Below, piece after piece: positions 45,001 through 64,000 of a stretch of 64,000 nucleotides of DNA. The stretch's first letter is position 1; each line of letters opens with the position of its first letter. This DNA comes from Isurus oxyrinchus (lineage: Eukaryota): the NCBI GenBank assembly GCA_026770705.1, contig JANJGN010000034.1:5704001-5768000 (forward strand). Reading direction: 5' to 3'. The position numbers were made by a program.

Positions 45001-48000
45001 CATCACAATCCGTGGGCATGCGCTATGCCACCTTCAGGACAGATCGAGCAGAGGTGAATGCACCGTAGTATACACTCCGTAGACAGTTGACTTTGGGGCC
45101 CTCAGCACCCACTCCAGACGACATGAAGTTGCAAGGCATCAGGATTAATATTGGCAAGGAAATCGCCTGCCGATTACCACGTACTGCCTTCCTTCAGCTA
45201 ATGAACCATAATTTTCCCATCTTGCAAACAACATAGAGGAAGCACTGAGGCTGGCAATGGCACAGAATGTACCCTGGATTGGGGACTTCAATGCTTATCA
45301 TCTATACTGCCTCAGTCGCTCCGCTACGGCCAAGCAGGTGGAATGCTAAAGAAAATATCAGCTAGAGTGGTTCTGTGCCTCGTGGTGAGGGAATCAAGAA
45401 TAGGGAAGGACCCAATTTTACCAGATATTCAGAAACTGGCCAGCTGCAGATACAAATCTCCCTGACAGTATCGGTAGGAGTGAACATCATGCTGTCATTG
45501 TGGAATTGAAGGCCCGTCTTCACGTTGAGGATACGTTGCATCGTGTTCTGTGGCACTAGCACCATTGTTAAATGGGATTGGTTCCAAACCTACCTACCAA
45601 TTTAAAACTGGGAAAACAGGAGGCCCATGGGCCGTCAGCAATAGTAAATTTTTGTTGAGCCAACATTTGTAAACTCATGGAATGACATATACCCCACTCC
45701 CCCATTAATGCCATGGCAGATGATCAACCCTGCTTAAATAAAGACTGCAAAAGGGCCTATCAGAAGCATCATGAGGCATACTTCAGAAGGAGGCTTCCAA
45801 TTGGTCAAACTACAACACAGGGCTGTTTTCCTCCCAAACAGCAACCAAATCAATGGATAGGCATCGCTAACCTATTCCAGAACATACGGATCAAATCTAA
45901 CCACTACAATAATGCCACATCAATTCGACAATGCTGTTCGACACTTGAAGAACATACTGGAGGGAGAAACTCCATGACTTATTCAGCTCCTGATCTCATT
46001 ACAGCTTTTATTTAAAAATGGGCAAAATTGACAAACTCACAGATGTGACTGCCCTTGATGTCAAGTCAGTGCTTGGCCAAGTGTAGCATCAAAAGCCCTA
46101 ACAAAACGGGACCAATGGGAATTGATGGAATGTTGGGAGGGGGTGGGGGAGGGGGGAGGGGTGCGGATGATGGCGGCTGGTGGGGGACCTCCACTCTCTG
46201 GATAAATATATATCATAAAAGGAAGATGGCTGTAGTTGTTGTAGATCAATAATTTCAACAGCAGGACATCACTGCCAATGATCCTCGCGTTAGTGCCCTA
46301 CCCCCAACCGCCTTCCAAAGCATCATCGATGCACTTCCTTCCATCATAAGGTCACAAATGGATACTTTCCCTGGCGATTGCACACATATCAGCAGCGTTT
46401 GCCTATCCTCAATGTCTGAAGTTGTTCCGGTCCAAATACAGAATGAAATGGAAATCATCAGTGCTTGGAGCAACCTGTGGAAAGTAATTCTAATGCCACG
46501 CATGTACTGGGAAATTACCATCTCCACAAGACAGCATCTAATCATTACCACTTGACTTTCATTGGCATTGCTATCATTGTTTCTCCCACAATCAACATTT
46601 TGATGCTACCGTTGACCAGCAACTGAATGGGGCTAGCCAAATCAGTACTCCAAAATCAGATCAGAGTATATGAAGCCTGTGATGGGTAATTCAGATCTTG
46701 TTTCGATAAGTCTGCCCAACATCTACAAGATAGAATTATATGCCTGATGGAATAGTTTCCATTTGCCTTGATAAGTGTAGCTCCAGCAATGCTGAAAGAA
46801 GCTCGAGGGCATGCAGGGCAATGCTGCCCATTTGAATGCCTCCTCATCCAACAGCATTCACTCCCTCCACCTCCGTCGTTTAGTGGCAGCAGCGAATGCC
46901 ATTGCAAGATGCACTGCAGTTACCTACAAGCCTCCTTGAACAGTACCTTCCAAACCCACGATCATTACCATCTGGAAGAGCAAAGGTAGAGGAGAACGGT
47001 CCTGTTGCAGAGGGGGAATGGTTTGGCACTATTTTGGAACGTAATGAGCCATTAAATCCCGAAAATGTTGAGCTTTTTCCACGAGGTCATAATTGGTTCG
47101 TTTCCTTAACTCTACTTATGAACATCTAAACATGCATGTTAACTTTTATCAATAACAAAATCTTTTATTTTAAATGTATTTTTTTTAAGTTAAGGTAAAA
47201 ACAACTGCTTATGCAAGACAGTTTCCCCGTTCCGCTGATGATAAAATTAGAATGATATGATCCTGTTGATGAAAGAATAGGCAATAACAATTATTGTGGT
47301 TTTCCAAAATATCAATGACGTTAGCGATATTGATAAATTCTAATAGTTATGGGCATTGTTATGGCGCTTTTAGGGGTGTTGATGAATACAATAACAAGCA
47401 TTTTAGTTATCAGTACTTGCATAATTCTATTCACAATAGCAAAACATTCTTTTTCTTTAAGTTTCAAAGCAAATTTCTCCAATCCAATACAAAAGGTTAT
47501 TATCGAAAATCATTTAACATTCAGCCTCAGATGTATTTGCAAACCTGTGTGCGGGTCATGAGCTGTTCCTGTTTTCAGAATATATGGGTTTTATGAATGG
47601 TTTATTTCTGTCTCATTTCAGAGCTGGGCAATGCCAAGAAAGCTTCAGATGGCTCAGGTTATCATGCATTAAATGTTTATGGAAACGAAAATGTCCTTGC
47701 TCAACCTGAATTATAACTGGGTTACCAATCATAAGTTTTTGTTGATGTCAATGCAAATTACATTCCGGCTGGGCATATAAATTATCCCCGTTACTCTGTT
47801 CCCCACAGATAAACCTTGCCACATTTCTCCATAATGTGAGGAGTACATTATCGGCTAATGTTAGTAAAATTAAAGATGCGTAGAATTTTTAATGGACAAT
47901 AATACTGAGTATTAGGATTACCTTAAACCTAGTTAAAACTTGATAATTTTTTAAACTGGCTGAAATATTTAAAAACATATTGCAAGAACATATTTTACTA

Positions 48001-63000: not shown

Positions 63001-64000
63001 TTTTTTATTACTCCCCCTTCTTTCAATGTTGCTGCTTCTAAGGGGAAATTGCTCGGAAAAATTTTTGGAACTTTGAAAAAGAAAAAGCCATTAAATACTG
63101 AAATCATCTTCAGCTTTTTCAAGAAATTCATGATTGGCCTGGGTCCTTACTCTAATTGCCAGGACCTGATAATATATGTTAACTTATTTAGTTAAAAGAA
63201 CAAGCATTTTCTTTTTGACTTTTTAAAAAAATACTTAATTTAAACCAAAACAGACAACTGACAATGCAAGGCGTTTACACATTTCTGCTGATGATAGGAT
63301 TATACCGACAATTTCATGATGATGAATGCATTGGCCACAATAATTAATGTGGTTTTCCAAAATATCAAAGAAGAGAGCGATGTACAGAAATGATGGCAGA
63401 GATGGCAATTGTTATGGCAATATTACGGATGTTGATGAAGGCAATGACGAACATTTCTGTTATCAATATCTTCAAAATTTCACTCACCATTCCGAAGCAT
63501 TGCTATTTTTAATTAACAAAGCCAAATGCTCTAATCCAATACAAAAGGTTATTATTAAAAACAATTGAACATTCAGCACGGATGTAGTTGCAAATGTGGG
63601 TGCGGTACATGAGCTGTTGCTGAAATCAGAATGTCTGGGTTGTTTGAAGGGGCTTATTGTTTCTCTTTTCAGAGTTGGATAATGCCAAGAAAGCTTCAGA
63701 CGGTTCAGGTAGTGACACAATAAATGTTTATGTAAACGAAAATGGTTTTGCTCATTATTGCTCAGTCTAACTTTATAGCATCGATGTCAATCATATGTTT
63801 TCGTAAACATCAAAGCAAATTAATTTTTGCTGGGACGTATAAATGATCCCAGATCCTTTGCTGCACAAAGGTAATCGCTATTGCCATTCTCCAGAATTTT
63901 GGGGATTATATTTTTGGATCGTATTGGATTATCAAAAGTCTTTTTTTCACAGTTGCAAAGAAAATACAATTGCCGTTAACTTGTAATACACGTGTGCCTT

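What the first reader, a model, noticed from the sequence alone, without database searches (positions are those of the whole stretch)
47000..64000. Exon array caught expanding by ~8 kb tandem duplication
Seen: two full units and the start of a third, each full unit carrying a 36-36-27 exon set plus collinear intron and TE remnants (exon spacing 8135 and 7916 bp). Exons 14/17 differ at 2 of 36 nt and exons 13/16 at 2 of 27, while the flanking introns are visibly more diverged with many indels (judged by eye, not computed). This suggests purifying selection on the exons, independently supports the exon calls, and shows how the array grows.
Basis: seen in the sequence. Interest (0 to 1): 0.7.

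Follow-up and report, generated by a model that had tools for sequence, protein, structure and literature searches.

The report
Old 8-kb tandem repeat carrying micro-exons
A stretch of about 8 kb holding two or three tiny candidate exons was copied head to tail at least twice long ago, an ordinary way for a repetitive gene to lengthen and not an expansion in progress.

Summary
The ~8 kb tandem repeat is real. Units run at about 47014-54962, 54963-63052 and 63053 to the window end, collinear throughout. Two points fail. The middle 36-nt exon of unit 2 has lost its acceptor (AG to GG), so unit 2 has no intact 36-36-27 set. The copies are also old: intronic K2P is 0.25 for u2/u3 and 0.36-0.41 for u1 against the others. 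That means two ancient events, not an array caught expanding.

Exons A and C are more alike than 93-99% of matched intronic windows. Exon B is not, at 18-25%. As a set they share 85 of 99 bases, reached by 0.13-0.39% of random intronic triples. Exon A has pN 0.04-0.08 against pS 0.12-0.50.

The exons are in phase 1-1, only that frame is open in all 16 candidates, and they belong to an older plus-strand 36/27-nt family upstream. This is a known kind of event, of modest interest.

The parts
47014..54962 (+). Tandem unit 1 (about 7.95 kb); left edge of the array
   Evidence: Homology with units 2 and 3 begins at 47014 (matching 54963). Nothing in 43700-47013 matches the unit tails.
54963..63052 (+). 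Tandem unit 2 (about 8.09 kb)
   Evidence: Collinear with unit 1, 72% identity over 7678 aligned columns.
63053..64000 (+). Start of tandem unit 3, cut off by the window end
   Evidence: BLAST 47047-47849 against 63086-63912 and 55329-56043 against 63246-63962. K2P to u2 is 0.251 and to u1 0.404.
47622..47657 (+). Candidate exon A1, 36 nt, phase 1-1 (LGNAKKASDGS)
   Evidence: Flanked by tttcAG and GTtatc (a weak donor). 31 of 36 identical to both A2 and A3.
52587..52622 (+). Candidate exon B1, 36 nt, phase 1-1 (HKECKDSLKLL)
   Evidence: Flanked by ttgcAG and GTaaaa. 29 of 36 identical to B2, which is no better than intron.
53293..53319 (+). Candidate exon C1, 27 nt, phase 1-1 (DKLSQCLD)
   Evidence: Flanked by tatatAG and GTaatg. 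25 of 27 identical to C2. Only frame 3 is open.
55757..55792 (+). Candidate exon A2, 36 nt (LDNAKKASVGS)
   Evidence: Flanked by tttcAG and GTagtc. 34 of 36 identical to A3.
60781..60816 (+). B2, homologue of exon B with its acceptor lost (GG instead of AG)
   Evidence: Sequence read and alignment. The AG at 60771-60772 would give 44 nt with a stop. The AG at 60788-60789 would give a 27-nt in-frame exon, 60790-60816.
61473..61499 (+). Candidate exon C2, 27 nt (DKLSRCLD)
   Evidence: Flanked by gcatAG and GTaaag.
63673..63708 (+). Candidate exon A3, 36 nt (LDNAKKASDGS)
   Evidence: Flanked by tttcAG and GTagtg.
55151..55576 (.). Unit-2-only inverted duplication: arms 55151-55321 and 55405-55576, with an 83-nt spacer between the inner arm pair (55202-55321 / 55405-55524)
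   Evidence: Arm pairs of 120 nt and 49 nt, 89% and 86% complementary. No such pair at the homologous places in units 1 and 3. Also seen as a minus-strand BLAST hit.
2325..43687 (+). Older members of the same micro-exon array (context): 36-nt at 2325, 15744, 20701, 23540 and 41373; 27-nt at 17083, 21165, 37903 and 43661
   Evidence: All are AG..GT and open only in phase 1. Exon pairs share 21-23 of 36 or 20 of 27 bases while anchored flanks are at chance, 24-30 of 100. 3 non-duplicate plus-strand pairs reach 21 of 36 or more, against 0 of 5558 minus-strand pairs.

Best explanation
This is an old intragenic tandem segmental duplication inside a plus-strand gene built from an array of tiny symmetric exons. 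An ancestral segment of about 8 kb carried three micro-exons: A (36 nt), B (36 nt) and C (27 nt). All are multiples of three and all are in intron phase 1, so any number of copies keeps the reading frame. The segment was duplicated head to tail once, giving u1 and the ancestor of u2/u3, and later again, giving u2 and u3. Afterwards the introns drifted to about 72% identity with roughly 100 indels. Exons A and C kept their splice sites and their encoded peptides under purifying selection. Exon B of unit 2 lost its acceptor and is decaying, or has been shortened to 27 nt.

Shown here: the duplication, its order and its age in substitutions; the state of the splice sites; the excess identity of exons A and C; and the bias towards synonymous change in A. 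Inferred: that the exons are spliced and translated; that the product is a repetitive helical or coiled-coil-like stalk, with Cys conserved in the 27-nt exons; and that the copying mechanism was unequal crossing-over or a replication-based event. No repeat element sits at the unit junctions to mark homologous recombination between repeated elements.
For: Collinear copies with consistent offsets. Intronic K2P is 0.251 for u2-u3 against 0.404-0.415 for u1 versus u2 or u3. Sites shared by only two units number 151 (u2+u3) against 68 and 72, which gives the tree ((u2,u3),u1). Exons A and C fall in the top 1.4-7% of matched windows, and the A+B+C sum is reached by 0.13-0.39% of random triples. Identity peaks on the exon and drops in the immediate flanks. 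An 11-nt indel lies 7-48 nt downstream of A1. Exon A has pN 0.04-0.08 against pS 0.12-0.50. Frame 3 (phase 1) is open in 16 of 16 candidate exons, while frames 1 and 2 each carry stops in 10 of 16; openness in frame 3 was a selection criterion. An older plus-strand 36-nt family keeps 21-23 of 36 identity while its flanks are at chance. The minus-strand control gave 0 of 5558 pairs at that level.
Against: There is no transcript or protein evidence. Single-exon searches in unspliced ORF context found no eukaryotic protein holding these peptides, although one 12-residue match could not reach E<=10 in those libraries. The exon A donors are weak (GTTATC, GTAGTC, GTAGTG). Exon B shows no excess conservation. 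At least five intronic islands are as conserved as exon A between u1 and u2. The codon counts are tiny, 1-4 differences per class. I picked the candidate exons partly for being open in phase 1 and for peptide likeness, so some of the support is circular. The minus-strand control addresses only the 36-nt family. For the 27-nt family the best similarity scores, 19, 19, 16 and 15, barely exceed the minus-strand maximum of 17.
Confidence: 0.62

Rival explanations
1. The duplicated 8 kb is plain non-coding DNA, and the 'exons' are chance AG..GT-bounded open stretches that happen to lie in better-conserved patches.
For: Intronic islands reach 33-34 of 36. Identity varies regionally from 0.61 to 0.80 along the unit, and exon C lies in the 0.79-0.80 stretch. 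Exon B is unremarkable. The donors are weak. No protein match was found.
Against: The combined exon identity is reached by 0.13-0.39% of random triples. Exon A changes mostly at synonymous sites. The same lengths (36/27), the same phase and a related peptide pattern recur in nine further plus-strand candidates upstream, and the minus-strand control has none at that level for the 36-nt class.
Confidence: 0.2
2. The exons look conserved because short-tract gene conversion between units homogenised them, not because of selection.
For: Tandem units 70-80% identical could in principle still convert. u2-u3 are closer to each other than either is to u1.
Against: Synonymous sites of exon A are as diverged as the introns (pS 0.35-0.50 for u1 against u2 or u3; intronic p-distance about 0.28-0.32), and only non-synonymous sites are spared. 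Identity falls within 20 nt on either side of the exons. The u2-u3 closeness extends over all 799 compared sites, so it is not a short tract.
Confidence: 0.06
3. One reading: a recent or ongoing expansion, an array 'caught expanding' and probably variable in copy number.
For: Three units lie in tandem and the third runs off the window, so more may follow.
Against: K2P is 0.25-0.41 between units, with 735 gap columns and about 100 indel runs. A unit-specific inverted duplication and a unit-specific splice-site loss have accumulated since the copying.
Confidence: 0.07
4. Exon A is longer than 36 nt and encodes the end of a cadherin-like repeat.
For: phmmer with the 40-residue ORF around A3 hit a 2234-residue protein at E 2.1e-21 in 21 stretches. 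The best covers query residues 15-34. That protein has 21 Pfam Cadherin domains.
Against: The score is one weak local match (52% identity over about 20 residues) multiplied by 21 near-identical repeats. 14 of the 20 matched residues come from reading past the donor. Unit 1 has an 11-nt, frame-breaking indel in that stretch, and identity there is at intron level. Pfam found no Cadherin match in any of the three A-containing ORFs even at E<=10.
Confidence: 0.02

Closest known systems
Nebulin triplicate region and the titin segmental-duplication region (intragenic blocks of exons repeated in tandem)
   Same: A block of several small, frame-compatible exons with their introns is repeated head to tail inside one gene that encodes a repetitive structural protein. 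The nebulin block is 'eight exons repeated three times' (PMC9109913, PMC9142044; I saw only the search listing and the start of each abstract).
   Different: Those human blocks are described as highly identical and prone to copy-number variation (same abstracts). The units here are only 68-79% identical in intron and carry unit-specific lesions. The gene here is unidentified.
Tandem exon duplication as a source of alternative or mutually exclusive exons
   Same: Homologous exons of equal length and equal phase lie in tandem, which is the substrate described for such events (PMC9013439, PMC9741552; search listing and abstract starts only).
   Different: The duplicated unit here is a set of three exons with 8 kb of intron, not a single exon next to its copy. 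Whether the copies are used together, alternatively or not at all could not be tested.
Heptad-repeat 'neck' or stalk regions encoded by one small exon per repeat (for example the 21-residue repeats of the CD23 stalk). This is recalled from memory, with no call or paper behind it.
   Same: Upstream of the finding, a 36-nt exon and a 27-nt exon add up to 21 residues, or three heptads. Hydrophobic or Cys residues fall at positions 2, 5, 9, 16 and 19 (arithmetic on the single-exon translations).
   Different: The A-B-C unit totals 33 residues, which is not a multiple of seven, and exon A ends in a Ser/Gly/Asp-rich stretch. No lectin or other domain was seen in the window. Membership is untested.

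Membership tests
Intragenic tandem segmental duplication of an exon set | Head-to-tail collinear copies of one segment, including its non-coding parts | tested here: met
   offsets of 7917-8261 throughout, 7678 aligned columns at 72% identity.
Intragenic tandem segmental duplication of an exon set | Each copy carries the homologous exons with usable splice sites | tested here: inconclusive
   A (3 of 3 copies) and C (2 of 2) keep AG and GT. B keeps them in 1 of 2 copies, and B2 has GG at the acceptor.
Intragenic tandem segmental duplication of an exon set | Copies are frame-neutral (exon lengths are multiples of 3, same phase) | tested here: met
   Lengths are 36, 36 and 27 nt. Phase 1 is the only frame open in all 16 candidates.
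Intragenic tandem segmental duplication of an exon set | The segment lies inside a transcribed gene and the exons are spliced | not testable with these tools
   No transcript data. The protein searches found nothing usable.
Recent or copy-number-variable array ('caught expanding') | Near-identical units | tested here: not met
   Intronic K2P is 0.251-0.415.
Coiled-coil or heptad-repeat segment | Hydrophobic residues at a/d spacing (3-4) kept across repeats | tested here: inconclusive
   The pattern fits the upstream 36+27 pairs by position arithmetic on single exons. It does not fit cleanly for A-B-C (33 residues). No predictor was run, because that would need a joined sequence.
Cadherin repeat | Match to the Pfam Cadherin model | tested here: not met
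   0 of 3 A-containing ORFs matched at E<=10. The phmmer hit is a repeat-multiplied local match.
Collagen-type 27/36-nt exons | Gly-X-Y triplets in the open frame | tested here: not met
   No frame of any of the 16 candidates reads Gly at every third residue.

The most novel reading that the evidence does not exclude
The array belongs to an unannotated, lineage-specific gene. Its product would be a long helical stalk, stapled by disulfide bonds, with Cys conserved in all six 27-nt exons. The stalk would have been lengthened stepwise by copying exon sets: first 36+27 pairs (21 residues), later the 36-36-27 set. Extra copies such as B2 would be in the course of being pruned. On this reading, stalk length is the evolving trait.
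Probability: 0.15. Interest if true: 0.45.

Novelty: new member of a known kind. Interest (0 to 1): 0.25.

Why it matters
If the exons are real, this locus is a clean worked example of how a repetitive protein grows. Symmetric phase-1 micro-exons let a whole 8-kb exon set be copied without breaking the frame, and the copies then diverge in fate: two exons are kept under selection and one loses its splice site. It also shows that paralogous-unit comparison can separate real micro-exons (A, C) from doubtful ones (B) where no annotation exists. It does not open a new question. Intragenic exon-block duplication is well documented, and these events are ancient rather than ongoing.

Tried and rejected

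2. The A3 exon in its own 40-residue unspliced ORF, searched against longer proteins (71-2000 residues), gave 6 word-sharing candidates and none at E<=10. A single 12-residue match could hardly reach E<=10, so this is weak evidence.

3. An alignment of 8 exons, each in its own ORF context, gave 2546 candidates and none at E<=10. Proteins over 2000 residues were not searched.

4. phmmer of the A3 ORF against 1.84 billion representatives gave 2 hits. I reject both: a 21-fold cadherin-repeat protein and a repeat ORF at E 9e-4.

5. Pfam on 8 long ORFs of the units and 2 TE-like ORFs upstream gave 0 of 10 with a family at E<=0.1. Pfam on 10 exon-containing ORFs at E<=10 gave 2 weak, irrelevant rows, PNMA at 0.041 and DUF6337 at 0.095.

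6. Rfam at gathering threshold found 0 matches and ARAGORN found 0 tRNAs, so there is no SINE-like tRNA signal.

7. A search for further homology upstream of 47014, and for an older copy of the unit in 40500-47000, found only the 47014-47095 edge match.

8. A minus-strand exon scan on the u1-u2 alignment found 5 overlapping short candidates at two sites, none convincing.

9. A shared-TE test of units against the upstream sequence at protein level gave 2 weak hits among 347 ORF pieces.

10. A first literature search on exon duplication in coiled coils listed nothing relevant.

11. The third homologous-protein search, structure prediction, complex prediction and the protein-atlas search were not used. 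Single exons are too short for them and a joined model was not to be made.
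Full report
**What the window is**

The window has 64000 bases, no N and about 40% G+C. A 19-base Alu start motif, allowing 3 mismatches, has 0 matches. I do not take the contig for human. The organism could not be named with the tools at hand. Rfam at gathering scores found nothing and ARAGORN found no tRNA.

**The observation**

The tandem repeat is real.
- The repeat finder on 40000-64000 returned 26 direct-repeat families. The 20 shown all have start-to-start spacings of 7915-8288, or 16051 for unit 1 against unit 3.
- Self-BLAST of the whole window gave 12 non-self hits. 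Six of them tile 47047-56043 against 55337-63962 on the same strand, with offsets drifting 8136, 8261, 8214, 8072, 7917, and 16039 for u1 against u3.
- Homology starts at 47014 (matching 54963). Nothing in 43700-47013 matches the tails of the units.

**The exons**

Three islands in unit 1 are bounded by AG and GT and are open in intron phase 1:
- A1, 47622-47657, 36 nt
- B1, 52587-52622, 36 nt
- C1, 53293-53319, 27 nt

Their homologues are A2 at 55757-55792, C2 at 61473-61499 and A3 at 63673-63708. The spacing of A is 8135 and 7916. A2/A3 differ at 2 of 36 and C1/C2 at 2 of 27, exactly as reported.

The less flattering pairs were not reported. A1/A2 and A1/A3 share 31 of 36, and B1/B2 share 29 of 36.

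The homologue of B in unit 2 (60781-60816) has GG where unit 1 has the acceptor AG. A new AG 8 nt upstream would make a 44-nt exon that runs into a stop. The next AG downstream would make a 27-nt exon in the same frame. Unit 2 therefore does not carry an intact 36-36-27 set.

**Exon against intron**

In a global u1-u2 alignment of 8413 columns, 7678 are aligned and 72.1% of those are identical. 735 columns are gaps, in 59 + 42 runs.

Share of matched-length intronic windows that are at least as identical as each exon:

| Exon pair | Identity | All windows | Ungapped windows |
|---|---|---|---|
| A (u1-u2) | 31/36 | 4.5% | 7.0% |
| B (u1-u2) | 29/36 | 17.9% | 25.4% |
| C (u1-u2) | 25/27 | 1.4% | 2.2% |
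| A (u2-u3) | 34/36 | 1.7% | 2.2% |
| A (u1-u3) | 31/36 | 4.7% | 9.0% |

- Against windows within 1 kb of each exon, the figures are 1.4% for A, 34.8% for B and 2.7% for C.
- The sum over the three exons is 85 of 99. It is reached by 0.13% of 200000 random triples of intronic windows, or 0.39% when only ungapped windows are drawn.
- Identity peaks on A and C and falls in the next 20-50 bases. Unit 1 has an 11-nt indel 7-48 nt past A.
- By Nei-Gojobori counts on the complete codons of each exon taken alone, A has pN 0.04-0.08 against pS 0.12-0.50. B has 0.15 against 0.34 and C has 0.08 against 0.12. The counts are 1-4 differences per class, so only A shows a pattern.
- At least five intronic islands reach 33-34 of 36. 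A high identity by itself does not mark an exon.

**Are these exons at all?**

The support comes from context.
- Scanning the plus strand for AG-N36-GT and AG-N27-GT stretches open in phase 1 turned up nine further candidates upstream: 36-nt at 2325, 15744, 20701, 23540 and 41373, and 27-nt at 17083, 21165, 37903 and 43661. They have polypyrimidine tracts and hydrophilic, Lys/Leu/Asp-rich translations.
- Phase 1 is the only frame open in all 16 candidates. Frames 1 and 2 each carry stops in 10 of 16. Openness in phase 1 was one of my selection criteria, so this point is partly circular.
- An independent control: among all 118 plus-strand AG-N36-GT candidates, three pairs outside the 8-kb repeat share 21-23 of 36 bases (2325/15744, 20701/23540, 15744/20701). 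Among 106 minus-strand candidates (5558 pairs), none does.
- The flanks of those exon pairs are at chance, 28-30 of 100. These would be much older duplicates in which only the exon survives.
- The 27-nt family is weaker. Its best pair is 20 of 27 (37903/43661), and its peptide scores of 15-19 compare with a minus-strand maximum of 17. All six 27-nt members keep a Cys at the same residue.
- By position arithmetic on the single-exon translations, a 36+27 pair makes 21 residues, with hydrophobic or Cys residues at 2, 5, 9, 16 and 19. That is a heptad spacing. The A-B-C set makes 33 residues and does not fit as cleanly. This is inference, and no predictor was run.

**Age and order**

On 799 intronic sites present in all three units, K2P is 0.415 (u1-u2), 0.404 (u1-u3) and 0.251 (u2-u3). 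Sites where two units agree against the third number 151 for u2+u3, against 68 and 72. Over the whole unit, u1-u2 is 0.356 on 7491 sites.

There were thus two events, u1 first and u2/u3 later, both old. At recalled vertebrate neutral rates of 1-2.5e-9 per site per year, this would be roughly 50-200 million years, but the organism and its rate are unknown.

Later, unit-specific changes agree with this:
- the lost B2 acceptor;
- an inverted duplication found only in unit 2, with arms at 55151-55321 and 55405-55576, 86-89% complementary.

No interspersed repeat sits at the unit junctions. The nearest copy, 46536-46978, lies just outside unit 1. The copying mechanism is therefore not marked.

**Identity of the gene**

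The exon peptides are too short for every search tool.
- One exon in its own unspliced 40-residue ORF found nothing among proteins of 71-2000 residues.
- An alignment of eight exons, each in its own ORF context, also found nothing.
- phmmer against 1.84 billion representatives gave two hits. One is a protein with 21 Pfam Cadherin domains. It matches mostly the part of the query read past the donor, and the one weak match is multiplied 21-fold. The other is a repeat ORF at E 9e-4. I reject both. Pfam finds no Cadherin match in the three A-containing ORFs, and the frame-breaking 11-nt indel in unit 1 lies in that stretch.

The gene is unidentified, and the lack of hits is weak evidence either way.

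**TE remnants**

I could not confirm any TE remnant inside the units. This part of the observation remains unchecked for want of a repeat library.

**Comparison with what is known**

Blocks of exons repeated in tandem inside genes for repetitive proteins are well documented. Examples are the nebulin triplicate region and the titin segmental duplication (PMC9109913, PMC9142044; listing and abstract starts only). Tandem exon duplication as a source of alternative exons is also well documented (PMC9013439, PMC9741552; listing and abstract starts only).

This locus is another instance. It is older and more decayed than those human examples, and it lies in an unknown gene.

**Verdict**

- Observation: partly confirmed.
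- Interpretation: partly supported. There is selection on A and C, no signal for B, and the array is not expanding now.
- Novelty: new member of a known kind.
- Interest: 0.25.

Noticed in passing
window 55151-55576: Unit 2 alone holds an inverted duplication. 55151-55321 is the reverse complement (86-89%) of 55405-55576, the stretch homologous to 47269-47440 and 63322-63493 in units 1 and 3. The inner arm pair is separated by an 83-nt spacer. It is younger than the tandem duplication and sits at the u1/u2 junction.
   Followed up: partly
window 2325-43687 (+): Nine further candidate micro-exons of 36 or 27 nt in the same phase. The 36-nt ones at 2325, 15744, 20701 and 23540 form a similarity cluster (21-23 of 36) that is absent from the minus-strand control. 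This suggests much older rounds of exon duplication, in 36+27 pairs.
   Followed up: partly
window 8332-9651, 22030-23388, 46536-46978 (-): Three diverged copies (about 65%) of one interspersed repeat. Their ORF fragments look reverse-transcriptase-like to the eye, but the two tested (8941-9237, 22284-22574) had no Pfam hit. The third copy ends 36 bases before the left edge of the tandem array.
   Followed up: partly
window 43010-43185: An 88-base unit repeated twice in tandem, 93% matches, 476 bases upstream of the candidate 27-nt exon at 43661.
   Followed up: no
window 48739-48786, 52982-53027, 53389-53431, 53864-53906, 54378-54420: Intronic islands as well conserved between units 1 and 2 as the exons (33-34 of 36 in the best window). 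None has matching splice sites in the array's phase on either strand. They could be splicing or other regulatory elements, or chance.
   Followed up: partly
window 23514-24049: A low-complexity stretch that reads as long runs of Lys/Asn on one strand and Leu/Ile/Ser on the other, directly after the candidate exon at 23540-23575.
   Followed up: no
window 63690-63749 (query residues 15-34 of the ORF 63648-63767): A phmmer E-value of 2e-21 arose from one short, weak match repeated across 21 near-identical cadherin domains of a library protein. This shows how repeat proteins inflate significance for short queries.
   Followed up: yes
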